From positions 1,485 to 65,484 of the forward strand of contig JACPLW010000002.1 in NCBI GenBank assembly GCA_016186325.1: a DNA stretch of 64,000 bases, written 5' to 3'. This stretch comes from Parcubacteria group bacterium. GTDB lineage: Bacteria > Patescibacteriota > Minisyncoccia > UBA10092. Shown here piece by piece: positions 4,739 to 54,208 of the stretch. Positions within the stretch are counted from its first letter, which is position 1, and each line of letters opens with the position of its first letter. The notes beneath the pieces were generated by a model. It did no database searches. It saw nothing but the letters and a program-made list of their open reading frames with translations, and was not told the DNA's origin. A program made the translations under genes and the position numbers.

Positions 4739-4789
4739 AATCGGTTTTTGGTTATATTATCATAAAATTCAGAAATAGGCAATTTAATA

Positions 4790-4857
4790 CCCCGTCCCGC
4801 AGCCCCGACGTTGTAGTCGGGGCTCCGACCATAATGCGTCGGAGCTGCGGGACGGGG
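4790..4857. repeat. composite multi-hairpin element (family A outer stem plus two inner hairpins)
   Basis: CCCCGTCCCGCAGC [CCCGAC..GTCGGG] [CTCCGAC..GTCGGAG] CTGCGGGACGGGG; second copy of the same architecture at 54098-54155. Confidence 0.6.
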
Positions 4858-4870
4858 TTATCCTAGAATC

Positions 4871-6208: not shown

Positions 6209-6394
6209 CTTTCCCTCCTTTTGGGCTTTTCTTAAGTTTTTTATTTATTTTAAAACTGATATAAAAGAGCTGATAAATATCATTTATCCCAGGAATGTTG
6301 GAAACCGAGCTTCCAACATGATAGATAACATTTATCAGGTCTTTTTAAAAATTTTCCCGCCTTTGGCGGGATCAGCCTCGGGCTGAAAAAATTT

Positions 6395-6425
6395 GGGGCG
6401 GCGAGACCGAGTGTCTCGCCGCCCC
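6395..6425 (-). terminator. intrinsic terminator of GC-rich gene 6453-7508
   Basis: GGGGCGGCGAGAC-CGAGT-GTCTCGCCGCCCC followed on the minus strand by CCAAATTTTTTC. Confidence 0.6.
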
Positions 6426-6452
6426 GCCGCCCCCGCCAATTGCGAAGGGTTA

Positions 6453-7508
6453 TTACTTCTTGCCGCGAGCGCGGTCGCGCTTCCAGTCGGAACTCTTATG
6501 AGTTCCGAACTCAGCGCCGAAGGTGCGCCGGTTCGCGGCGCCGCCTTCCAGCGAGCGCGCCTGGCTGACGCGCCCGGCGCTCTCCGCCTCACGCTTGACC
6601 ACGAGGCGAAGCCCCGCGACCGTATAGAACGTGAGAACTGCCCGCCGCTCCACCCAGTCAGGGTGGTCTTGCGGCAGATCCTTGCGGGCCCGGAAGTCCT
6701 CGAGGGCCTCCGAGCGGCACGTGCCGCAGCAGCGAATGCCGTAGGCGAGCGTCTTGCCCGCCTCCTCGATCTTGACCACTCCCGGAGGGATTTCTCCCGG
6801 AGGGATTTCCCACGGGAAGTTCTCCGCGTCGGCGCGGAGAAGCTCGCCGGCGACGATGTCGCCGCCGTCGCCCTTGCCGTGCTGACGGCGGTGAAGCTTG
6901 CCATCGTCTCCCCGCTCGAGGAGGAAACGCTGGGTCAGCTCCACCGGCTCGTTGTAACCGCGATGCCGCGGAGTGGCGCACGGCATCTTCTTGCCGGCCA
7001 CGAGCGGATCGGGATCCGGCTGCTCGGCGACCAGCTCCGCGATCGCCGCCTTCTCCGCGGCCAGCTCGGAAAGATAGTGCCTGAACATGGACCGGGTGAT
7101 CTCCACCCCGTCCTTGGCCTCGGCAGCAAACCGCTGCCGAATCCCACGGACCGTCGCCTGGCCCTTGTAGAGCCCGGCGTCCCAGTCCGCCTGCATCTCG
7201 CTGTCGAAGAGCAGCCGGTCGTCGTTGGCCGGCCTGCTGCTGCCGTCCTTCTCGGCCTTCTCGCGCTTGCCGCGCGAGATGATCTCGGCCGTCGCAGCCT
7301 CGATCTCAGCCACGGTCACGTCGGCCGGCATCCGCGGCTTGACCACCTCCGAGGCGGCCCACACCGCGAAACCGAGCGACCACCCCTGCTTCTCGGCGAT
7401 ACGCTTGAGCGCCTCGATGACGCCCTGCTGGCTGAACCGCTTCTTGTCATCCGCTGCTACAACTATCTTCCTGGGCTTGGCCATGATTGGCCTCCGTTGT
7501 CCCGCCAA
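6453..7508 (-). CDS. hypothetical protein (GC-rich island gene, no recognisable family)
   Basis: 351-aa ORF; SD ACGGAGG 7 nt before ATG; strongly GC-rich unlike its flanks; tandem 15-bp duplication encodes PGEIPPGEIP; own consensus promoter and terminator. Confidence 0.5.
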   Translation of the reverse strand: MAGQRRPIMAKPRKIVVAADDKKRFSQQGVIEALKRIAEKQGWSLGFAVWAASEVVKPRMPADVTVAEIEAATAEIISRGKREKAEKDGSSRPANDDRLLFDSEMQADWDAGLYKGQATVRGIRQRFAAEAKDGVEITRSMFRHYLSELAAEKAAIAELVAEQPDPDPLVAGKKMPCATPRHRGYNEPVELTQRFLLERGDDGKLHRRQHGKGDGGDIVAGELLRADAENFPWEIPPGEIPPGVVKIEEAGKTLAYGIRCCGTCRSEALEDFRARKDLPQDHPDWVERRAVLTFYTVAGLRLVVKREAESAGRVSQARSLEGGAANRRTFGAEFGTHKSSDWKRDRARGKK

Positions 7509-7594
7509 AGGCAGGGACTTTTGTATTGGTTGTCGCTCTTGAGGGCCGTTATTGGCCTCTTGAGCTTAAACCCTGTTTAGGAACTATTAACCAC

Positions 7595-8533: not shown

Positions 8534-9142
8534 ATGGGAGAGCAAAAGTTCGTCAGAATGTTTGGCCGACCCGAAATCCACATTACCGCCTGCGCTGTTA
8601 CCAGAGATCGGGATTTCAACAATGTTATTAGCGACATTATTATTGAGACCAACCAGTTTTGGGACAGATATCCTCCTCATCATGAAAGAGCGTTGCTTAA
8701 AATGTATCAACAGAACCCGGGAAAGAACCTGATTTGTAACGATAGTACTCAAACCCTAAGAATCCCGATGTTGTTTTTGGGCAATAATTCCAACGATGGC
8801 TGGGGAGAATTGCAATTCCTTATTAAAGCGCCGAGATTGGTGAGACTAGCCCGTCACCGCTGTTTTGATACCAGGGTCAATCAATGGGTTCCAGAAACTA
8901 AACTGATCCAGCCAAAAACCAATATGGAAACCCACGCTTATCTGGCCCTGCGGTTTTACCACAATAGTTATCTGCCGCCGAAGATGCCGAAAACGCGGCG
9001 ATGGTACTTTGAGCCGGTATATGTGTCAATAAGAAATTCGGATTTTTACAAAATTGATGTTTTGTGGGAAAAGGAAAAAATCAAGATTACGGTAACCGTA
9101 TTAGACAAAAATTCGCCCGAAATTCCGAAACATTTGAGGTAA
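8534..9142 (+). CDS. hypothetical protein
   Basis: SD AGGAGGG 4 nt before ATG 8534; about 203 aa; no recognisable motif. Confidence 0.55.
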   Translation: MGEQKFVRMFGRPEIHITACAVTRDRDFNNVISDIIIETNQFWDRYPPHHERALLKMYQQNPGKNLICNDSTQTLRIPMLFLGNNSNDGWGELQFLIKAPRLVRLARHRCFDTRVNQWVPETKLIQPKTNMETHAYLALRFYHNSYLPPKMPKTRRWYFEPVYVSIRNSDFYKIDVLWEKEKIKITVTVLDKNSPEIPKHLR

Positions 9143-9152
9143 ATAAATTCGC

Positions 9153-9178
9153 CCCGTCTGCAATTTGCAGGACGGGGT
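9153..9178. terminator. bidirectional terminator hairpin (family A variant CCCCGTCTGCAA..TTGCAGGACGGGG)
   Basis: GC stem followed by TATTTTT on plus and TTTATTT on minus. Confidence 0.6.
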
Positions 9179-9182
9179 ATTT

Positions 9183-10418
9183 TTAAACTTTTTCTTCTTT
9201 CCCGCCCGTCATTGCCTGCGCCTGCCCGCCAGTCGCTGATGCTCCAGGCATCTGCAGGCGGGGCTCAGACTGCTCACGGACAGGCAAAAGACCCAAACTC
9301 ATCCGGTGTTCATCGGGAATAAAAGTTAAAACTTGAAATTTATATTTTTTGCCCGCTTCAAGCGCGGCTTTCATTTTATCGCCTGTGCCAAACTCCGAAA
9401 TATGACAAAGTCCTTGCAAAGATTCGTTATCCGGACAAACCACCTCAACAAAAGCGCCAAATGGATTAAACTTTTTAACCAGACCTTCAACTGTTTTGCC
9501 TTTTTCAAAATGAGGAATGGCCACTTTCCAAGGATCGGGCTTTAACCGCTTTAAAGACAGAGAAATCCTGTCATTGGTGATGTCAATAATCTGGGCAGAA
9601 ACATCATCACCGACTTTCACAAAATCAGCCGGATTTTCTATTAATTGCCAATCAAGTTCGGAAATGTGAATTAGCCCTTCGAGCTTGTCTTCACCAGCGG
9701 GCTTGCCCTCCGTAACCACGCTTTGCGGGGTGAAGGAGGACCATTTTATAAACGCGCCCCAATCAACAATGCCGGAAATCTCACCTTTGACAATATCGCC
9801 TATTTGATAATGGCCGATGGCCTCTTTAAAGTTTTCTTCTTCGGCCGCTTTTTCCGAAACAATCAGTTTGCCTTCTTTAGAATCAAAGTCTAAAACGCGC
9901 ACCTTAAAGTCACAGCCTATGAATTTTAACAGCTCTTCTAATATCTTTGTTTTGTCTCCGCCCTCAACCCGCGGGTAATGTTCGTTTGAGAGCTGACTAA
10001 CCGGAAGAAATCCGGCAACGCCGCTGATTTCAATCATCAGTCCGCCGCGATTGGCGTTAATTATTTTTGTGACAACTGCTTTATTTGTCTTTTTCAGTTC
10101 ACGAATCAAATCCCATGATTTCTGACTTTGAGCTTCCGCGAGAGACAACTCTCTTAAACCGGCCTCATTTTCGACTTCCACAATTTTGGCAAAAACACTA
10201 TCGCCGATTTTCAGGTTCTTTATTATGTTTTGGGCATTGGCAAATTCTATGCCGTAAACAATGCCAATACCGAAAATGCCAAGATCAATATATAAATTCT
10301 TGGCGGTTTTATTTAGCACTCTTCCTTCAATTACCTCGCCGGCCTTGGGCATGTTAAATGCTTTTGGCAGTTTGGCCAGAAGATTTTGCATATTTAAAAT
10401 TCCTATTTGAGCTTCCAT
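9183..10418 (-). CDS. rpsA: 30S ribosomal protein S1 (four S1 domains)
   Basis: 411 aa with repeated S1 OB-fold signatures (GxV.G.V..I...GaFV); GC-rich C-terminal tail. Confidence 0.8.
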   Translation of the reverse strand: MEAQIGILNMQNLLAKLPKAFNMPKAGEVIEGRVLNKTAKNLYIDLGIFGIGIVYGIEFANAQNIIKNLKIGDSVFAKIVEVENEAGLRELSLAEAQSQKSWDLIRELKKTNKAVVTKIINANRGGLMIEISGVAGFLPVSQLSNEHYPRVEGGDKTKILEELLKFIGCDFKVRVLDFDSKEGKLIVSEKAAEEENFKEAIGHYQIGDIVKGEISGIVDWGAFIKWSSFTPQSVVTEGKPAGEDKLEGLIHISELDWQLIENPADFVKVGDDVSAQIIDITNDRISLSLKRLKPDPWKVAIPHFEKGKTVEGLVKKFNPFGAFVEVVCPDNESLQGLCHISEFGTGDKMKAALEAGKKYKFQVLTFIPDEHRMSLGLLPVREQSEPRLQMPGASATGGQAQAMTGGKEEKV

Positions 10419-10485
10419 ACCTCACCAAGGTTATCATAAAATATCTTCTTGTCAACTGTCATAAAATCTGATAACATTTTCTCAT

Positions 10486-11208
10486 ATGACAATTTCTTGG
10501 TATGGAGAGGCCTGCTTTTTACTTGAAAGCGGGGGCATAAGAATCTTAATCGAACCGCCGCAAAAAGAATCCGGAATTAATCCACCTCGCTTAAAAAGCG
10601 ATGTTTTGGTTTATTCCCGCCCCAAAGGGGCGCCGCCGGAGGCGAGCCTCGCCAAGGGCGGGAGGCTCGCCTCATCAAATGAGGCGGCGAAACCTCGCGC
10701 CGAGAGAGTGGCTTTTTCCGACCCAGAATCAGGAGCGTTTATAATCGAATCGCCGGGCGAATACGAAGTTAAGGGCGCCAATATCCTAGGGATTGCCGAC
10801 CCCGCAGCTGCGGGGCAAGCAAATATTATATATAGCATTGAAATGGACGAAATAAAAATCGCCCATCTCGGTTTTGCGAATAAAAAATTTAATAGTGAAA
10901 AATTAGCAGAGCTTGACGATCCGGACATTGTTCTCGCGCCTGTTGGCGGAGGCGACATTTTGGACGCCGAAGGAGCAATGAACGTTATAAACCAGCTGGA
11001 ACCGAGCATTGCCATTCCAATGCTCTATGATATAAAGGGATTGAAAACCAAAAAAGCCCCTCTTTCCATGTTTCTTAAAGAAAGCGAGGCGAAAGAATCT
11101 CCCCAGCCAAAATTAATAATTAAGAAAAAGGACTTGGTCGAGGAAGAAACAAAAATTATAATTTTATCCCCCTACGGGGGATCTCCCGCAGGGAGAGAAC
11201 AATCATAA
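10486..11208 (+). CDS. MBL-fold metal-dependent hydrolase-like protein (UPF0173-like) with GC-rich in-frame insertion
   Basis: N-terminus MTISWYGEACFLLE and C-terminal DIVLAPVGGGDILDAEGAMNVINQL..IPMLYD fit the family; central ~45 aa (GAPPEASLAKGGRLASSNEAAKPRAERVA) is encoded by GC-rich palindromic DNA. Confidence 0.55.
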   Translation: MTISWYGEACFLLESGGIRILIEPPQKESGINPPRLKSDVLVYSRPKGAPPEASLAKGGRLASSNEAAKPRAERVAFSDPESGAFIIESPGEYEVKGANILGIADPAAAGQANIIYSIEMDEIKIAHLGFANKKFNSEKLAELDDPDIVLAPVGGGDILDAEGAMNVINQLEPSIAIPMLYDIKGLKTKKAPLSMFLKESEAKESPQPKLIIKKKDLVEEETKIIILSPYGGSPAGREQS

Positions 11209-11456
11209 TGAAACGAATACTGGAAAACATCCAAACCAAACCTGGCGCCGTAAAACACGTAGTAATGTGGGTCGGAATTTTTTTAATAATGACCGCGATT
11301 TTTAGCTTTTGGCTTATGACTTTTTCCTGGCAAGTATCTCAAACTGCGGAAAATAACTCCGCTTCAGAACTTGAAAAAGAGCTGCCATCGGTTTTTAACA
11401 GTTTAAAATCACAGACCGGCCTTCTTTTTGAAACTATGAAAAACTTAGGCAAATAA
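11208..11456 (+). CDS. small membrane protein (hypothetical)
   Basis: 82 aa with one hydrophobic helix; start overlaps upstream stop (ATGA). Confidence 0.4.
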   Translation: MKRILENIQTKPGAVKHVVMWVGIFLIMTAIFSFWLMTFSWQVSQTAENNSASELEKELPSVFNSLKSQTGLLFETMKNLGK

Positions 11457-11506
11457 AATGGTCCCCCCACCCTTTGCGGATTTTGCTCTAAGTTTAAAAA
11501 TGGATA

Positions 11507-14044
11507 ATGACTAAAAAAATAATCACAAACTCTAAAGAAACCCCTAAAAACGAAAGAGATTCGCAAAACTTAAACTTATCCGCAAAGGGTGGGGGAGAAA
11601 CGGGCTACGTAAAACCGCGGGAAATCGTCCGCGAGATGGAAGATTCGTATCTTGAGTACGCGATGTCGGTTATTATTTCCCGCGCTCTTCCCGATGTCAG
11701 AGACGGACTAAAGCCGGTTCACCGCCGGATTCTTTATGCCATGCACGATCTGGGCCTGACCCATCAGGCAAAATTCCGCAAATCGGCTCTTGTTGTCGGC
11801 GAGGTTTTGGGTAAATATCATCCGCACGGCGATATTTCGGTTTACGACGCCTTAACCCGGTTGGCGCAGGACTTTTCTTTGCGTTACCCGCTGGTAAACG
11901 GACAAGGTAATTTCGGAAGCATTGACGCCGACGCGCCGGCGGCGATGCGTTACACGGAGGCGCGGCTTACTTCGCTCGCCGAGGAAATGCTAAAAGACAT
12001 AGATAAAAACACTGTAGATTTTATTGATAATTATGACGCCACCCGCAAAGAGCCAAAAGTTCTTCCGGCCGCTGTTCCCCAGCTTCTTTTAAACGGCACC
12101 GTGGGTATAGCCGTAGGTATGGCTACAAATATTCCGCCCCATAATCTTGGGGAGATAATTGACGCTACTTGCCAACTTATTAAACATCCTAAAAGTTCGG
12201 TTGAAGACCTTTTGGAATTCGTAAAGGGTCCCGACTTTCCGACCGGCGGCATTATTTATTCCAAAAAAGATATTGCCGCCGCTTACGCCACCGGTAGGGG
12301 GCCTATTATCGCCCGCGGCGTAGCCGAAGCGGTTGAGGATAAAAAAGGCCGCGCTCAAATAATAATTACCGAAATTCCGTATCAGGTAAATAAATCAACC
12401 CTTCTTGAAAAAATTGCCGAGCTTGTCAGCGAGAAAAAAATTGACGGTATCCGCGACTTACGCGACGAATCGGACAGGGAGGGCATGAGAATTGTCATTG
12501 AGCTCAAAAGCGACGCCGCGCCGCAAAAGATTTTGAATAACCTCTACAAGCACACCGATCTTCAAAAAACTTTCCACTTAAACATGCTGGCTTTAGTTGA
12601 CGAAATCCAACCGCAAGTTCTTTCGCTTAAGGCCGTTTTGGAATATTACCTAAAACACCGAGAAGAAGTGGTGGTGCGTCGCGTAAAATACGATTTGGTA
12701 AAAGCGCAAGAGCGAGCGCATATATTAGAGGGCTTAAAAAAAGCGCTTGATTCAATTGATGAAGTAATTAAGGTTATAAAGAAATCGCAAGACAGGAGCG
12801 AGGCCTTAAAAAATCTTATAAACAGGTTCAAACTCACGGAAATTCAGGGGAGCGCTATTTTGGAAATGAAACTTGCCACTCTAGCCAATCTTGAAAGAAA
12901 AAAGATTGAAGATGAACTTATTGAAAAGGTAAAATTGATTAAAGAATTGACCCTTATTTTAAAAAGCCGCGAAAAAATACTGGAAATAATTTATCAAGAG
13001 CTTCAGGCAATAAAAGAAAAATATAACGACCAGAGAAAAACGAAAGTTATGGCCTCGTCTCTGGGCGAATTCAGAGAAGAAGATTTGGTACCGCTTGAAG
13101 AAGCTGTCGTAGTCTTAACCGAATCCGGATACATTAAAAGAATGAATCCCTCTCTAGTCCGCTCACAGCATCGCGGCGGCAAGGGCATGACCGGAATGTC
13201 TACAAAAGAAGAGGACGCTGTCACCCACTTTGTTTCAGCAAAAACCCACGATAACGTTTTGTTCTTCACCAACACCGGCCGCGTTTTCCAAACTAAGGTC
13301 TGGGAAATTCCGGAGGCCAGCCGGCAATCGCGCGGCAAAGCCGCAGTAAACTTTTTGGCCTTGAGCGGCGATGAAAGAGTTAACGCGATTCTGACATACA
13401 ACGAAAAACAGCTAAAGGAGAAGGGCACTGAAAAGTTCTTGGTGATGGCAACCAAGAGCGGACTAGTCAAAAAAACACCGATCGCCGACTTCGGTTCGGT
13501 TCGTCATTCCGGCCTCATTGCCATAAAACTTAAGAAGGGCGACTCTCTCAAGTGGGTAAAAGGCTCTTCGGGCGAAGACCAAATAATTTTTGTAACTATG
13601 CTCGGGCAAGCGATAAGATTTTCGGAAAAAGACGCGCGGCCATTGGGGCGGGCGACAGCCGGAATGCATGGCATCCGCCTGCATCAGGGCGACGAAGTTG
13701 TCAGCATGGATGTAATAACCGCCTCGGCCGCAAAAGACCAAAACACCAAATTCTTGGTGATTATGGAAAACGGTTTCGGCAAAAAAACATTCATTAAATT
13801 TTACAAAAAACAAAACCGGGGCGGTTCCGGCGTTAAAACCGCTAAAGTTACCCCTAAGACCGGAAAAATCGTTTCGGCGTTCATTATAGGACCAGACACT
13901 AAGGAAATGATTGCCATTTCAAAAAAAGGCGTAGTAATCCGCCTTGATCTTGAGTCAATTTCAACCGTTTCACGTGTAACCCAAGGCGTCCGTATAATGA
14001 GAGTTGAAGCGGGAGATAAAGTAGTTTCAGCAACGTTGTTGTAG
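11507..14044 (+). CDS. gyrA: DNA gyrase subunit A
   Basis: 845 aa; [37 protein letters not shown]; full-length GyrA with C-terminal beta-pinwheel repeats. Confidence 0.95.
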
Positions 14045-14223: not shown

Positions 14224-14715
14224 TCACCTGAGTCGCTTCTGGCAGCAACCCAGATCCCCCATCCATCCGCACGACGTGCGGAGATGGGCGATCCTACTGC
14301 TGCTCGTCACCCTGGGAGGAGACTCCATGGTGATGAACGGCACCGGCTCGACTGCCGCCGGCTTCCGTGGAGGAAGAGCGACGAGCTTGACGCTCACCAG
14401 CCGGCGCGGCCTCTCCTTCCTGGGCAGTGCCCAAGAATGGTGGCCGTTCGAAACTGCGTCCGCGGCCACACCAGCGAAGGTTGCGCCGTGCGCAACCTCC
14501 TCGAGGATTTCGCGGCGCTCCTTGCCCTGACGGTTGTAACCGCAGAGCAACTTGAACGGATCGGAACTATCGAGATTAAGGATAGACCCACGACGCGTGA
14601 TGCCGCGTGAGGCCTTACTCCCGATGAGTTTCGCATCTCCTCGCCGCCGCCGTCTCGTGTCCAGGCGGCGGTTGTTGCCGTCGTCGTAGGTGTTCCTGAA
14701 CCGCCCAAATTGCAT
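14224..14715 (-). CDS. hypothetical protein (GC-rich island gene)
   Basis: 163 aa; strong SD GAAGGAGGAGG 5 nt before ATG; Arg-rich; no recognisable family. Confidence 0.45.
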   Translation of the reverse strand: MQFGRFRNTYDDGNNRRLDTRRRRRGDAKLIGSKASRGITRRGSILNLDSSDPFKLLCGYNRQGKERREILEEVAHGATFAGVAADAVSNGHHSWALPRKERPRRLVSVKLVALPPRKPAAVEPVPFITMESPPRVTSSSRIAHLRTSCGWMGDLGCCQKRLR

Positions 14716-14750
14716 CTTCGCCTCCTCCTTCTTCTTTATTTAAAAAAACA

Positions 14751-14773
14751 GGGGGGGGTCGAACCGCCCCCCT
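14751..14773 (-). terminator. intrinsic terminator between the two GC-rich genes
   Basis: Minus strand GGGGGGCGGTTCGACCCCCCCC followed by TGTTTTTTT. Confidence 0.6.
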
Positions 14774-14779
14774 CGGATC

Positions 14780-15034
14780 CTAGACGACGACGCGCTTCGC
14801 GCTCGACGCGTGGAGCTCGTCGAGCGCCGCCTGGGTGAGGTTCTTGCGGACCCACATGTGGGCTCCGCAGAAGAGCGGCCGCACGCCCGGACGGCGCGCC
14901 TTCGTCGCGCGCTCGCCGCCGTTGCCCCGCTTCTGACGGCGGGGGTTGTCGCAATCGGCGACGCGGCACGACGCCTTGAAATGCGCGAGCCACTCTTCGC
15001 GAGGTGGAATGACGGCCACGATTTCGTAGCCCAT
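14780..15034 (-). CDS. hypothetical protein (GC-rich island gene)
   Basis: 84 aa; SD AAAGGAGAGAGG before ATG; Cys/His-containing. Confidence 0.45.
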   Translation of the reverse strand: MGYEIVAVIPPREEWLAHFKASCRVADCDNPRRQKRGNGGERATKARRPGVRPLFCGAHMWVRKNLTQAALDELHASSAKRVVV

Positions 15035-22295: not shown

Positions 22296-22443
22296 AAAAC
22301 AAAAATAGCACCTGGTGCTATTTTTGTAAAGTGAGCGGGCCGCCTCGTCCGCCAACAAGGTTGGCGAGACGAGCGAGACATTGCACGCCCCTCCTTCGCC
22401 CCGCTTTGCGGGGCTTCGGACGGGCAAGCGTTAGAACTTGTTT
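22296..22443 (-). repeat. ~150-bp promoter-bearing repeat, copy 1 (family G)
   Basis: About 95 percent identical to 24361-24509; contains terminator-like hairpin AAAAATAGCACCWGGTGCTATTTTT, -35-like TTTACA and the GTGCAATGTC motif. Confidence 0.7.
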
Positions 22444-24360: not shown

Positions 24361-24509
24361 AAAACAAAAATAGCACCAGGTGCTATTTTTGTAAAGTGAG
24401 CGGGCCGCCTCGTCCGCCAACAAGGTTGGCGAGACGAGCGAGACACTGCACAACCCTCCTTCGCCCCGCTTTGCGGGGCTTCGGACGGACAAGCGTTAGA
24501 ACCTGTTTT
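24361..24509 (-). repeat. ~150-bp promoter-bearing repeat, copy 2 (family G)
   Basis: See copy 1; a partial copy lacking two internal hairpin modules lies at 23996-24045. Confidence 0.7.
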
Positions 24510-25162: not shown

Positions 25163-25834
25163 ATGCGTAATGATAAGCATATTGCTATAAAATTAAGAAA
25201 GCAAGGGAAAAGTTACAGTAAGATAAGCAAAGAGTTGAACGTGCCTAAAAGCACGTTGTCTGCTTGGCTTTCGGATATAAATTGGTCTAGGTTTATAAAA
25301 ATTGGTCTTACGAGAAGAGCTAATTATATTGCTAGAAAACGATTACGATCATACAATAAAAAACAGAAAATATTTTGGGAAGCGTGGCGAGCACAGGCAA
25401 GACAACAAGCTCGCAGTAGCTTTCCGAAACTTAAGTCAAATCCTCTCTTTATATCAGGAATAATGATTTATTGGGGCGAAGGTGATAGTAAAATAGAAAA
25501 TTCCAACGTCAGGATATCAAACACTAATCCAGATATGATCAGGGTTTTTAATTTATTTTTGCGGATAATTTGTAAGGTCCCAAAAGAAAAAATAAAAATG
25601 GCAATGATTTTATACCCTGATCTCAATGAAATCAAATGTAAAAATTTTTGGAGTAAGACTTCTGGTGTGCCTAAGGGTCAATTTATAAAAACTCAATTTA
25701 TCAGGGGTAAACATCCTACCAAAAGATTGACTCACGGAATTGCTTTAGTATACTACCCTAGTAGAGAACTAAAAGAAAAAATATTCGTCTGGATTGAGCT
25801 TTTCCACAAACAATTTCCGCTCATGCGGGTGTAG
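25163..25834 (+). CDS. HTH-domain protein, possible LAGLIDADG-like nuclease; paralog of 31894-32562
   Basis: N-terminal HTH LRKQGKSYSKISKELNVPKSTLSAWL; central IMIYWGEGDSK resembles a LAGLIDADG-type motif; 3' end overlaps tRNA-Gly. Confidence 0.5.
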   Translation: MRNDKHIAIKLRKQGKSYSKISKELNVPKSTLSAWLSDINWSRFIKIGLTRRANYIARKRLRSYNKKQKIFWEAWRAQARQQARSSFPKLKSNPLFISGIMIYWGEGDSKIENSNVRISNTNPDMIRVFNLFLRIICKVPKEKIKMAMILYPDLNEIKCKNFWSKTSGVPKGQFIKTQFIRGKHPTKRLTHGIALVYYPSRELKEKIFVWIELFHKQFPLMRV

Positions 25835-37761: not shown

Positions 37762-37968
37762 ATGCAGATCAGGAAGCAGTTGAGGCGGATGGCCAACGCG
37801 GCTAACGCGATCGCGGCGGGTCGCGAAAGGCCGATCACCCCGGAGCCAAACGGGTACGCCGGCGAGCATCACCGGATTCGCCACAAGTCCAACAAGGGAC
37901 CGCGGATGCGCGGTTCCGGGACCGCGCCGCGCCGCACGAAGAAGAAGGGTGGTGGCGCCGGCCAGTAG
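37762..37968 (+). CDS. small highly basic protein (GC-rich, hypothetical)
   Basis: 68 aa rich in R/K/G; perfect promoter, strong SD and strong terminator. Confidence 0.55.
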   Translation: MQIRKQLRRMANAANAIAAGRERPITPEPNGYAGEHHRIRHKSNKGPRMRGSGTAPRRTKKKGGGAGQ

Positions 37969-37987
37969 CCGGCGCCCCACACGCCTT

Positions 37988-38040
37988 GGAGCGATTCGTC
38001 CGTCAGTCGACGGACGGACTCGCTCCGGGGCGCTTTTTTT
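37988..38040 (+). terminator. intrinsic terminator
   Basis: GGAGCGATTCGTCCGTC..GACGGACGGACTCGCTCC hairpin then GGGGCGCTTTTTTT. Confidence 0.65.
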
Positions 38041-40456: not shown

Positions 40457-41133
40457 ATGGAAGTAGGAGTGCTGTTCTCAAGCGACGGCATTCTGGCGCT
40501 AAACAAACCGCCCGGGATGTGCAGTCAGGGACCCAAGACTTCGGATATCCCGGAGTTGTGGGAACTGCTACGAACACACCACCCTGGCGGTCATGTCGCT
40601 CATCGGATCGATCAGTACACATCTGGTATCAATCTAGCTGGTGCTTCAAAACGGCAGATCAGTTATCTGATGCGTAACTGGCACCAGATCACGCGAAAGA
40701 ACTACCTGTCTGTCTCATCAACAACCCGACGTGGAGCGAGAAGGTTGTGGACACGCCCCTCAAGGGTAAGTCCGCAATCACTGCGTTCACGGTGCTTGAG
40801 CGTTCTGGATCGTTGGCGTTGATTCAATGCCAGCTAGTCCAAAACGGGCGGACTCATCAAATCCGGCGACACCTGAAGTCGATCGGTGCACCGATCGTCG
40901 GAGACCGAAAGTACAAGGGTCCGACAACCAGGGTGCGGTCTGGTCAACTGCTTCATGCGTGGCGCATGGAGGTCAGACTGCCGGACGATTCTGGTAAGCC
41001 CGGCCCTTGGATTACCATTCAGGCGCCGATCCCCAACGATTTCAAGCAGATCAACTTCGATTGGAGTCGCTGGGATGCCAACGCCAACACAACGCTGGAG
41101 ATCTGGGCAGTTCCCTCCGGTTGGCGACACTAA
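40457..41133 (+). pseudogene. RluA-family pseudouridine synthase, frameshifted (GC-rich)
   Basis: Frame 1 carries HRIDQYTSGINLAG (RluA catalytic Asp motif); frame 2 (40747-41133) carries the RluA C-terminal half (GRTHQIRRHL..GDRKY); frames overlap around 40747-40822. Confidence 0.65.
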
Positions 41134-54097: not shown

Positions 54098-54155
54098 CCC
54101 CGCAATCCCGATATTACAGTCGGGACTCCGACCCCAGAGGCGTCGGAGCTGCGGG
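54098..54155 (+). repeat. composite multi-hairpin element, copy 2 (in the dksA-like 5' UTR)
   Basis: CCCCGCAATCC [CCGA..TCGGG] [CTCCGAC..GTCGGAG] CTGCGGG; same architecture as 4790-4857. Confidence 0.6.
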
Positions 54156-54208
54156 ATTTATACGTTATTGTTGACCGCTTTTTAATTTTCGTATACTATC
54201 TAACCATT

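What the first reader, a model, noticed from the sequence alone, without database searches (positions are those of the whole stretch)
10620..10815. MBL-fold hydrolase gene interrupted in-frame by ~130 bp of GC-rich palindromes, with a family-A hairpin inside the CDS
The N-terminal WYGEACFLLE and the C-terminal UPF0173-like region are intact. The expected HxHxDH zinc-binding segment is replaced by low-complexity sequence (GAPPEASLAKGGRLASSNEAAKPRAERVA) encoded by GGCGAGCCTCGCC / GAGGCTCGCCTC / CCTCATCAAATGAGG palindromes. CCCCGCAGCTGCGGGG follows at 10800-10815. The gene may be inactivated or remodelled by a repeat insertion.
Basis: partly seen in the sequence, partly recalled or inferred. Interest (0 to 1): 0.55.

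Follow-up and report, generated by a model that had tools for sequence, protein, structure and literature searches.

The report
Tiny palindromic repeats inserted in-frame
A Parcubacteria gene for a degenerate metallo-beta-lactamase-fold protein carries three in-frame insertions of very short GC-rich hairpin repeats, and the same repeat families sit inside many other genes of related uncultured bacteria, so the gene was colonised by selfish-looking repeats and not broken.

Summary
The gene at 10486-11208 (240 aa, Pfam Lactamase_B_3) contains a 72-nt segment of 75% GC (10616-10687) made of nested palindromes, and a perfect palindrome at 10800-10815. Both are in frame.

The 42-nt element has an invariant handle, CCCGCCCCRAAGGGGCGAGGCTCG, followed by a second hairpin of variable sequence. 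Its handle occurs in at least 120 metagenome contigs of 31-56% GC, in both orientations and all six frames. Verified hosts include rpoC, uvrA, recG, mfd, a class-I tRNA synthetase and PEP synthase.

None of 120 homologs has HxHxDH, with or without inserts, so ligand loss is a family trait. The gene is not inactivated: the ORF is intact and dN/dS is 0.12-0.20. The inserts fall in segments that AlphaFold2 models with low confidence or in a turn.

The closest analogues are Rickettsia palindromic elements and mitochondrial GC clusters or double-hairpin elements. I found no description for Patescibacteria. How the elements move is unknown.

The parts
10486..11208 (+). Host gene: 240-aa MBL-fold (Lactamase_B_3) protein of a Parcubacteria MAG. 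It lies in the conserved gene order S1(-) | MBL(+) | 82-aa ORF(+) | gyrA(+). The whole family lacks the metal-ligand motifs.
10616..10687 (+). 72-nt in-frame composite insert of 75% GC, encoding (S)RPKGAPPEASLAKGGRLASSNEAA. It sits between TTTATT and CGAAACC of the empty site seen in L012. It is a 42-nt double-hairpin element ('X') carrying a nested 30-nt module.
   Evidence: AlphaFold2 gives pLDDT below 50 for residues 44-82.
10616..10632 (+). Hairpin 1 of the conserved handle: CCCGCCCCAAAGGGGCG, with stem CGCCCC/GGGGCG and loop AAA.
   Evidence: Identical or differing by one base in orthologs L014, L016 and L011 despite saturated dS.
10632..10661 (+). Nested 30-nt module GCCGCCGGAGGCGAGCCTCGCCAAGGGCGG (PPEASLAKGG), inserted between GGGGCG and AGGCTCG of the handle. 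It contains the palindrome GGCGAG-C-CTCGCC. It is absent from the 42-nt orthologous copies and present, 28/30 identical, in L011.
   Evidence: Other 30-nt modules lie at the same internal point in L043 and L118.
10662..10687 (+). Rest of the handle (GAGGCTCG) plus variable hairpin 2, CGCCTCAT-CAA-ATGAGGCG, then GG. The loop is the reverse complement (TTG) in L014 and L016.
10800..10815 (+). Perfect palindrome CCCCGCAGCTGCGGGG (PAAAG). It lies at the insertion hot-spot after GIAD, where 48 of 120 homologs carry an insert, most often PSTSSG (CCTTCGACAAGCTCAGGG). The net insert against L012 is about 15 nt. In the model it sits in a turn between strands 98-105 and 113-120.
11167..11196 (+). 30-nt tandem double hairpin TCCCCCTACGGGGGA + TCTCCCGCAGGGAGA (SPYGGSPAGR), inserted 3 codons before the stop. 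It is 30/30 identical to the copy in the L001 ortholog. The same element occurs in S1 and gyrA genes of other genomes.
9201..9284 (-). Same phenomenon in the neighbouring gene: an 84-nt insert of 70% GC, in frame, near the C-terminus of the S1-domain gene. It is absent from all four orthologous loci.
9699..9737 (-). Same phenomenon: a 39-nt GC-rich in-frame insert in the S1-domain gene, at a site where other genomes carry other palindromic elements, including the X handle in L003.
11461..11597 (+). Related but different element: about 137 nt, AT-rich, with perfect 18-nt terminal inverted repeats (11464-11481 and 11578-11595). It is inserted just after the ancestral gyrA start codon. gyrA now starts at an ATG inside the element (11507).

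Best explanation
**What it is.** The GC-rich palindromes are copies of very short, non-coding, dispersed hairpin repeats of Patescibacteria (CPR bacteria). They have become fixed inside the coding sequence of a still-functional gene.

**Anatomy.** The 72-nt block is a 42-nt double-hairpin element. It has an invariant handle, CCCGCCCCRAAGGGGCGAGGCTCG, then a second hairpin that is variable in sequence but always self-complementary, then GGC. A further 30-nt palindromic module is nested at a recurrent internal point of the handle. Two other small palindromic elements sit at 10800-10815 and 11167-11196.

**Why the gene survives (inferred).**
- The elements are GC-rich, so they are mostly free of stop codons.
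- Copies whose length is a multiple of three and whose reading frame gives a tolerable Pro/Gly/Ala/Ser/Arg-rich peptide survive in surface loops, turns and termini.
- In this protein family the loop that once held HxHxDH had already lost its catalytic role, so it became a hot-spot for such insertions.
- The insert therefore adds a disordered loop. It neither removes the metal site nor kills the gene.

**Shown here:** the insertions are discrete; the elements are dispersed; the reading frame and frame usage are filtered; the host gene is under purifying selection; ligand loss is family-wide.

**Inferred:** the elements are mobile, selfish DNA. The lack of target-site duplication and the hairpin ends suggest spread by a hairpin-recognising, single-strand-DNA type mechanism or by gene conversion, with preference for T-rich TTC^AA-like sites. 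The machinery is unidentified.
For: **Discrete insertions.** Syntenic orthologs give exact empty and filled sites of 72, 42, 30 and about 15 nt, all in frame. In the 5-kb syntenic block, every window-specific indel of at least 9 nt that lies within the three protein genes is GC-rich (0.63-0.85). The closest relative, L012, has no reciprocal insert inside the genes.

**Dispersal of the handle.**
The contigs that carry the uninterrupted handle have GC 0.31-0.56, median 0.38.
- 89 of 121 copies lie inside ORFs of at least 120 aa, in both orientations and all six frames.
- Verified hosts include Mfd, RpoC, UvrA, RecG, a class-I aaRS and PEP synthase.
- The same elements occur in S1 and gyrA genes of sister genomes.

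**Selection filters on copies.**
- Length is a multiple of three in 48 of 62 copies inside ORFs, against 6 of 19 outside.
- Two of the six frames account for 46 of 62 in-ORF copies, against 12 of 32 elsewhere.

**Hairpin maintenance.** A perfect second stem of at least 7 bp is present in 54 of 88 copies, against 0.36 expected. There are 70 distinct sequences among 81 copies.

**Patchy distribution.** Near-identical proteins differ in which inserts they carry, for example P0005 vs P0009 and P0035 vs P0016 vs P0098.

**Elements are more conserved than the host gene.** Identity is 30/30 and 28/30 nt, against about 50% identity at third codon positions of the gene.

**The gene is alive.** dN/dS is 0.12-0.20. 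The inserts map to pLDDT<50 segments or a turn.

**HxHxDH is absent in 120 of 120 homologs**.
Against: - No transposase candidate was found among the roughly 47 window ORFs scanned. The ORFs between 47562 and 63912 were not scanned.
- There is no target-site duplication.
- The handle occurs only once in this 64-kb window, so activity in this genome is unproven.
- The extreme conservation of the handle, and of elements at orthologous sites, could reflect a host function at the DNA or RNA level and not recent mobility.
- Ancestral presence followed by repeated precise loss cannot be separated from repeated gain with the NJ tree used.
- The AlphaFold2 model is of modest quality, with mean pLDDT 62.
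- Whether the insert is translated has not been shown.
Confidence: 0.78

Rival explanations
1. One reading: the repeat insertion destroyed the HxHxDH zinc site, so the gene is an inactivated or decaying MBL hydrolase.
For: The insert lies exactly where the SHQHFDH of TM0207 aligns, and the inserted peptide is low-complexity and modelled as disordered.
Against: None of 120 homologs has HxHxDH, including the many without any insert. Other ligand positions are also replaced across the family: HLGF for HLGD and PMLY for PMHY. The ORF is intact, dN/dS is 0.12-0.20 and synteny is conserved.
Confidence: 0.03
2. The hairpins are host-selected functional signals and not selfish DNA. Candidates are mRNA stabilisers or RNase barriers, translational pause sites, or protein or DNA-structure binding sites. 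On this view they are kept in coding regions because the hairpin itself is useful.
For: - The second hairpin keeps complementarity while its sequence varies.
- The handle and whole elements are much better conserved than synonymous sites of the host gene.
- The same sites are occupied in several orthologs.
- Predicted folding is strong.
Against: - Presence is patchy even between near-identical orthologs.
- Positions within genes are arbitrary, and host genes are unrelated.
- Copies occur in both orientations and all frames.
- There is no Rfam match.
- Palindromes can preserve their own symmetry through hairpin-templated repair without any selection.
Confidence: 0.1
3. The palindromes were generated locally, by template switching, slippage or inverted duplication during replication. 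They were not inserted from elsewhere.
For: The nested 30-nt module contains an inverted copy of the adjacent 12 nt (GAGGCGAGCCTC / GAGGCTCGCCTC). The loop of hairpin 2 is inverted between orthologs, CAA against TTG. The palindrome at 10800 looks like a symmetrised version of the PSTSSG element found in orthologs.
Against: The identical 23-nt handle in at least 120 unrelated contigs and genes, and the identical 30-nt C-terminal element in other genes and genomes, cannot arise locally. Local remodelling probably acts on the elements after they have inserted.
Confidence: 0.07
4. Assembly or binning artefact: a chimeric join or a mis-assembled repeat created the GC-rich block.
For: The window contains several unexplained high-GC blocks, and the protein is known from a single MAG contig.
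Against: The insert is in frame, with exact junctions to conserved codons. The same composite, 94.6% identical over 56 nt, is at the same codon in an independent groundwater assembly (L011), and 42-nt versions occur in three other independent assemblies.
Confidence: 0.02

Closest known systems
Rickettsia palindromic elements (RPEs; Ogata et al. 2000, as summarised in PMC10969869)
   Same: Dispersed palindromic repeats that insert in frame into unrelated housekeeping genes of a reduced, AT-rich genome. They add a peptide segment without killing the gene and tend to lie at structurally tolerant positions.
   Different: RPEs are about 100-150 bp, belong to ten Rickettsia-specific families, and each encodes a conserved peptide in one frame. 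The elements here are 15-45 nt (up to 72 nt when nested) and GC-rich. They have an invariant handle plus a hypervariable hairpin and are read in all six frames. They show no sequence relationship to RPEs and occur across many Patescibacteria lineages.
Mitochondrial GC clusters, double-hairpin elements and repetitive hairpin-forming elements (yeast var1, Allomyces, sponges; PMC8811140, PMC2800124)
   Same: Short GC-rich palindromic clusters in AT-rich compact genomes. They are often tandem double hairpins, variable mainly in the loops, and merge or nest into composites. They are found in variable regions of protein and rRNA genes, with in-frame insertions that cause protein length polymorphism (var1). 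The Allomyces elements also lack target duplications.
   Different: Those elements are organellar and these are bacterial. Yeast clusters have AG/TAG terminal repeats read as target duplications, and none is seen here. In Magnusiomyces the elements are bypassed during translation, whereas here frame and length are compatible with ordinary translation, although this was not tested.
REP/BIME elements and their RAYT (IS200/IS605-like Y1) transposases
   Same: Imperfect palindromes of 20-40 nt, often paired, with no target-site duplication. Hairpin recognition is a plausible route of mobilisation.
   Different: REPs are by definition extragenic, whereas 74% of handle copies here lie inside long ORFs. 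No RAYT or Y1 transposase was seen in the part of the window scanned, and there is no conserved GTAG-type 5' tetranucleotide.
TM0207 (PDB 1vjn) / Pfam Lactamase_B_3 MBL-fold hydrolases (the host protein)
   Same: Best sequence match (profile E=2e-29) and best fold match (Foldseek E=1e-9). The strand and helix order is the same.
   Different: The Patescibacteria family lacks HxHxDH, the Asp of HLGD and the His of PMHY. Of the metal-ligand positions compared with TM0207 only one His (H127) is kept, so a canonical di-metal hydrolase site is unlikely.

Membership tests
Pfam PF13483 Lactamase_B_3 / MBL fold (host protein) | Sequence match above the curated threshold | tested here: met
   102.1 bits against a cut-off of 24, E=4e-29, covering profile positions 1-159 of 160. 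A profile of the family hits 1vjn at E=2e-29.
Pfam PF13483 Lactamase_B_3 / MBL fold (host protein) | MBL-type fold | tested here: met
   The AlphaFold2 model has core pLDDT 70-88 and mean 62. The top Foldseek PDB hits are all MBL-fold proteins, led by 1vjn at E=1e-9.
Metallo-hydrolase of the MBL superfamily (catalytic membership) | HxHxDH motif plus downstream His/Asp/His metal ligands | tested here: not met
   None of 120 homologs has H.H.[DE]H or even H.H. HLGF replaces HLGD and PMLY replaces PMHY. This holds whether or not an insert is present.
   Only the C-terminal half matches TM_1162, at E=1.7e-5. TM0207 is a far better match.
In-frame intragenic palindromic repeats (RPE-like kind) | Discrete insertion relative to orthologs, with the reading frame preserved | tested here: met
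   Inserts of 72, about 15 and 30 nt against L012, with exact junctions.
In-frame intragenic palindromic repeats (RPE-like kind) | The same repeat dispersed in unrelated genes | tested here: met
   The handle is in at least 120 contigs. Hosts include RpoC, UvrA, RecG, Mfd, an aaRS and PpsA. The other two elements occur in S1, gyrA and other genes.
In-frame intragenic palindromic repeats (RPE-like kind) | Sequence homology or size class of Rickettsia RPE families (about 100-150 bp) | tested here: not met
   Elements are 15-45 nt, or 72 nt when nested. Absence of homology to RPE consensus sequences is my own judgement. No RPE sequences were available to align.
MITE | Terminal inverted repeats plus target-site duplication | tested here: not met
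   Only 5-6-nt complementary ends (CCGCC...GGCGG) and no TSD. Host 7-nt repeats continue uninterrupted across the element. The separate 137-nt element at 11461-11597 does have 18-nt TIRs.
REP / RAYT system | Extragenic location | tested here: not met
   89 of 121 copies lie inside ORFs of at least 120 aa.
REP / RAYT system | Cognate Y1 (RAYT) transposase in the genome | not testable with these tools
   None was seen among the roughly 47 window ORFs scanned with Pfam. ORFs between 47562 and 63912 were not scanned, and the rest of the genome is not available.
Mitochondrial GC cluster / double-hairpin element kind | GC-rich tandem hairpins in an AT-rich genome, with variable loops and nesting or merging | tested here: met
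   Inserts are 0.75 GC against 0.42 for the rest of the gene. Double-hairpin architecture, 70 variable parts among 81 copies, and nested 30-nt modules.
Mitochondrial GC cluster / double-hairpin element kind | Short terminal direct repeats (AG/TAG) as target duplication (yeast type) | tested here: not met
   No flanking direct repeat. There is only a preference for T-T-C before the element and A-A after it.

The most novel reading that the evidence does not exclude
Patescibacteria harbour a previously undescribed, phylum-wide family of ultra-short (about 42-nt) double-hairpin mobile elements. Each has an invariant recognition handle and a hypervariable self-complementary module. They insert without target duplication, nest into one another at a fixed internal point, and repeatedly enter the same codon of orthologous genes in different species. 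That pattern would imply a dedicated, still unknown machinery that recognises structure. It would also make these elements a major and overlooked source of the odd low-complexity loops (RPxGARLA, ASLAPSGRE, PSTSSGQA, SPYGGSPAGR) in CPR proteins, including RNA polymerase and DNA-repair enzymes.
Probability: 0.3. Interest if true: 0.75.

Novelty: new variant of a known kind. Interest (0 to 1): 0.58.

Why it matters
**For annotation.** The GC-rich low-complexity stretches in CPR proteins are repeat insertions. They are not domains, not frameshifts and not signs of pseudogenes. They distort protein clustering, alignments and structure prediction.

**For genome evolution.** Streamlined genomes with almost no intergenic space appear to accommodate selfish DNA inside essential genes. 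The filters visible here are length in multiples of three, a preferred reading frame, and loop location.

**For mobile-element biology.** The architecture of an invariant handle, a hypervariable hairpin and a fixed nesting point, together with elements far more conserved than their host genes, points to an insertion or conversion mechanism not yet described in these bacteria.

**Separate point.** The host protein family is an MBL fold that has lost its metal site yet is conserved next to gyrA. That raises a functional question of its own.

Tried and rejected
- **Rfam scan of 9000-12000 at E<=1.** It returned only two far sub-threshold chance hits, so no known RNA family fits.
- **Transposase search.** Pfam scans of about 47 window ORFs found no Y1/IS200-type enzyme. 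They found only an HTH_23/transposase-HTH ORF (25163-25834), a XerC/D-like integrase and an HNH_repeat protein. ORFs between 47562 and 63912 were not scanned.
- **Viral contigs.** The handle is absent from 2.9 million viral contigs, so there is no hint of a phage vector.
- **Target-site duplication.** None was found. At most one base (C) is ambiguous at the junction.
- **Variable hairpin copied from the flanking target.** Inspection of about 60 copies shows no such relation.
- **Intrinsic 3n length of the element.** Rejected. Copies outside ORFs are 3n only at the chance rate, 6 of 19.
- **Literature.** Ten full-text searches found no description of such elements in CPR, Patescibacteria or Parcubacteria, nor any of the peptide signatures. 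Subscription-only papers are not covered.
- **Formal covariation test on the 42-nt class.** Dropped as circular, because that set had been selected for pairing. I used the unselected stem statistic with a shuffle control instead.
Full report
**1. The observation**

The region lies in ORF 10486-11208 (+), 240 aa, with no stop. It matches Pfam PF13483 Lactamase_B_3 at E=4e-29 over profile positions 1-159 of 160. An identical protein is deposited as 'MBL fold metallo-hydrolase [Parcubacteria group bacterium]'.

GC reaches 0.75 at 10630-10689, against 0.427 for the window. The three inserts together are 0.75 GC, and the rest of the gene is 0.42.

- CGCCCCAAAGGGGCG at 10618-10632.
- A perfect 12-nt inverted repeat at 10639-10650 and 10662-10673.
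- CGCCTCATCAAATGAGGCG at 10668-10686.
- CCCCGCAGCTGCGGGG at 10800-10815.

The stretch folds better than dinucleotide shuffles, with z=-3.6 as RNA and -3.8 as DNA. GC-rich perfect hairpins are about fivefold enriched in the window: 107 calls against 15-27 in shuffles, counted the same way, with one hairpin sometimes listed under several loop sizes.

**2. Is it an insertion?**

Homologs are mostly about 200 aa. Four close orthologs were fetched with their flanks. All share the gene order S1(-) | MBL(+) | small ORF (79-89 aa where called)(+) | gyrA(+), so the loci are orthologous.

DNA and codon alignments show three discrete, in-frame insertions relative to the closest ortholog L012 (P0003, 201 aa):

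- **(a) 72 nt at 10616-10687.** The insert lies between TTTATT and CGAAACC. The following 'KPRAERVAFSDPES' is ancestral; P0003 has KPRIEKMAFSDPES.
  - L014, L015 and L016 carry a 42-nt version at the same codon. It lacks the inner 30 nt GCCGCCGGAGGCGAGCCTCGCCAAGGGCGG.
  - L011 carries the full composite.
- **(b) About 15 nt at 10800-10815.** Here 48 of 120 homologs have an insert, most often PSTSSG, encoded by CCTTCGACAAGCTCAGGG.
- **(c) 30 nt at 11167-11196.** This is two 15-nt hairpins encoding SPYGGSPAGR, three codons before the stop.

Over the whole 5-kb syntenic block, every window-specific indel of at least 9 nt that lies within the three protein genes is GC-rich (0.63-0.85). These include 84-nt and 39-nt inserts in the S1 gene. 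L012 has no reciprocal insert inside the genes.

**3. Was the zinc site replaced?**

No. A profile of the family aligned to TM0207 (1vjn, E=2e-29) places its SHQHFDH opposite a short variable loop in all members. It also shows GEA for GHA, HLGF for HLGD and PMLY for PMHY.

None of 120 homologs contains H.H.[DE]H or even H.H. The median is one histidine per protein. The loss of ligands is therefore a family trait that predates the inserts and is independent of them. The loop that replaced the motif is simply the family's main insertion hot-spot.

The fold assignment holds. The AlphaFold2 core has pLDDT 70-88, and the top Foldseek PDB hits are all MBL-fold proteins, led by 1vjn.

The gene is not decaying. 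dN/dS against five orthologs is 0.12-0.20.

Residues 44-82 (insert a) and 219-240 (which include insert c) are modelled with pLDDT below 50. Insert b lies in the turn between strands 98-105 and 113-120.

**4. What are the inserted sequences?**

They are members of dispersed repeat families.

*First evidence of dispersal.* BLAST of the inserts against the fetched loci found the same motifs in other genes:
- The handle CCCGCCCCAAAGGGGCGAGGCTCG in the S1 gene of L003, and a variant in gyrA of L011.
- The 30-nt element in gyrA of L005 and in the S1 genes of L016 and L002.

The contigs that carry the uninterrupted handle have GC 0.31-0.56, median 0.38.
- Of 121 copies, 89 lie inside ORFs of at least 120 aa.
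- They occur in both orientations and all six frames, giving the peptides RPxGARLA, PAPKGRGSP, PPQRGEARP, ASLAPSGRE, RASPLRGG and GEPRPFGAG.
- Pfam confirmed six hosts as Mfd/TRCF, RpoC, UvrA, RecG, a class-I aminoacyl-tRNA synthetase and PEP synthase/PPDK.

*The other two elements.* The site-2 element CTTCGACAAGCTCAGGGCAAG occurs 18 times in about 1 Mb of fetched DNA, read as PSTSSGQ, LRQAQGK or PELVEG. One MBL homolog reads it as GFDKLTTG.

**5. Anatomy of the 42-nt element**

- **Layout.** C-CGCCCC-RAA-GGGGCG-AGGCT-CG[variable stem-loop-stem]CG-GC.
- **Handle.** The first roughly 24 nt are invariant. In the metagenome copies this is by design of the search. It also holds in the orthologous copies found through protein homology.
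- **Second hairpin.**
  - There are 70 different sequences among 81 copies.
  - A perfect stem of at least 7 bp is present in 54 of 88 copies, against 0.36 expected after shuffling.
  - The modal stem is 8 bp and the modal loop 3 nt.
- **Length.** The modes are 42 and 45 nt.
- **Flanks.** They are AT-rich, with T-T-C before and A-A after the element. No target duplication is present. In several copies a host 7-nt tandem repeat continues uninterrupted across the element.
- **Nesting.** Different 30-nt modules occupy the same internal point (GGGGCG^AGGCTCG) in the window, L011, L043 and L118.
- **Loop inversion.** At the orthologous MBL site, the loop of hairpin 2 is CAA in the window and its reverse complement TTG in L014 and L016. 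This suggests stem-mediated loop inversion. That reading is an inference.

**6. Signs of selection and of mobility**

- Length is a multiple of three in 48 of 62 in-ORF copies, against 6 of 19 outside ORFs.
- Two frames (RPxGARL and SLAPxGR) account for 46 of 62 copies in long ORFs, against 12 of 32 elsewhere. Insertion thus appears little constrained, and survivors are filtered at the protein level.
- Insert states are patchy even between near-identical proteins.
- The elements are far better conserved than their host:
  - The C-terminal element is 30/30 identical between the window and L001, where third codon positions of the gene are 89/181 identical.
  - The nested module is 28/30 identical to L011, with 9/10 third positions against 91/181 in the gene.
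  - This fits recurrent acquisition or conversion from a shared pool, or constraint at the DNA level. The data cannot decide between these.

**7. Mechanism**

Shown: discrete in-frame insertions of dispersed palindromic repeats into tolerant parts of a gene under purifying selection.

Inferred: the repeats are non-autonomous, selfish elements. Because they are GC-rich in an AT-rich genome, they rarely contain stop codons. The 72-nt insert is open in four of six frames, so one insertion in three can be tolerated in a loop.

The hairpin ends and the lack of target duplication resemble IS200/IS605- or RAYT-type single-strand transposition, or RNA-mediated or conversion-based spread. No enzyme was identified:
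- Pfam scans of about 47 window ORFs found none. ORFs between 47562 and 63912 were not scanned.
- The handle is absent from viral contigs.
- No Rfam family matches.

**8. Comparison with known systems**

The closest functional analogues are:
- Rickettsia palindromic elements, which make in-frame insertions into many genes (PMC10969869).
- Mitochondrial GC clusters, double-hairpin elements and repetitive hairpin-forming elements, including the in-frame GC-cluster polymorphism of yeast var1 (PMC8811140, PMC2800124).

The elements here are much shorter than RPEs. They are bacterial and not organellar. They are not extragenic like REPs. They lack the TIR and TSD signature of MITEs.

Ten full-text searches found no description for CPR, Patescibacteria or Parcubacteria, nor any of the peptide signatures.

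**9. Verdict**

It is partly wrong: the insertion neither caused the loss of the metal site nor inactivated the gene.

The specific gene event is ordinary once the repeat families are recognised. The wider interest lies in the families themselves, which are apparently undescribed and which colonise essential genes across Patescibacteria.

Noticed in passing
window 11458-11597: An AT-rich element of about 137 nt with perfect 18-nt terminal inverted repeats (11464-11481 and 11578-11595; RNA fold z=-4.2) sits directly after the ancestral gyrA start codon (11458-11460, in the same TAAAATGG context as L012). That frame now stops after 17 codons. The gyrA ORF begins at an ATG inside the element (11507), which gives GyrA a new N-terminus of about 30 aa.
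   Followed up: partly
window 58757-58818: A second pair of related inverted repeats, TCCCCCACCCTTGGGGAAT ... ATTCCCCAAGGGTGGGGGA, lies inside ORF 57224-59143. It may be a shorter member of the same TIR family as the gyrA element.
   Followed up: no
window 9201-9284 and 9699-9737 (S1-domain gene, minus strand): Two further GC-rich in-frame inserts (84 nt and 39 nt) are absent from orthologs. At the second site other genomes carry other palindromic elements, so this gene has its own insertion hot-spot.
   Followed up: partly
window 10486-11208 and homologs P0001-P0120: The whole Patescibacteria MBL-fold family lacks HxHxDH and most other metal ligands (GEA, HLGF, PMLY), yet it is conserved under purifying selection next to gyrA. 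It is probably a non-catalytic or differently catalytic MBL fold of unknown function.
   Followed up: partly
window 6335-7580, 14224-15000, 37779-38037, 61126-61590: Blocks with GC above 0.7, in which stretches of 200-310 nt stay above that level, lie in a window of 0.43 GC. The long ORFs there (6453-7508 minus strand, 14224-14715 minus strand) have no Pfam hit. They may be foreign DNA or mis-assembled segments.
   Followed up: partly
window 22331-22433 and 24396-24496; ORF 25163-25834: Two nearly identical GC-rich direct repeats of about 100 nt, each holding two hairpins, bracket about 2 kb that includes a cytidine/dCMP deaminase-family gene. Next to them is an ORF with an HTH_23 / Sleeping-Beauty-type transposase HTH domain.
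   Followed up: no
window 40457-41133: A pseudouridine synthase (PF00849) is split into two overlapping ORFs, 40457-40822 and 40747-41133. This is a frameshift, a pseudogene or a sequencing error. GC-rich palindromes lie at 40880-40897 and 40954-40968.
   Followed up: no
window 4787-4859: A 73-nt nested palindrome lies in the spacer between the FtsH and beta-CASP RNase genes. Its outer arms are CCCCGTCCCGCAGC / GCTGCGGGACGGGG and enclose two inner hairpins. A partial copy is at 54115-54159.
   Followed up: no
loci L049, L070, L102, L123 and others; MBL homologs P0028, P0035, P0049: The 42-nt element is often embedded in runs of 7-nt tandem repeats (caaatgt, aacagtc, aaatctc), which translate as QMSNV- or KSKIK-like peptides. 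The same QMSDVKGQ repeats occupy the site-1 loop of some MBL homologs. This is a second kind of insert associated with the hairpin elements.
   Followed up: no
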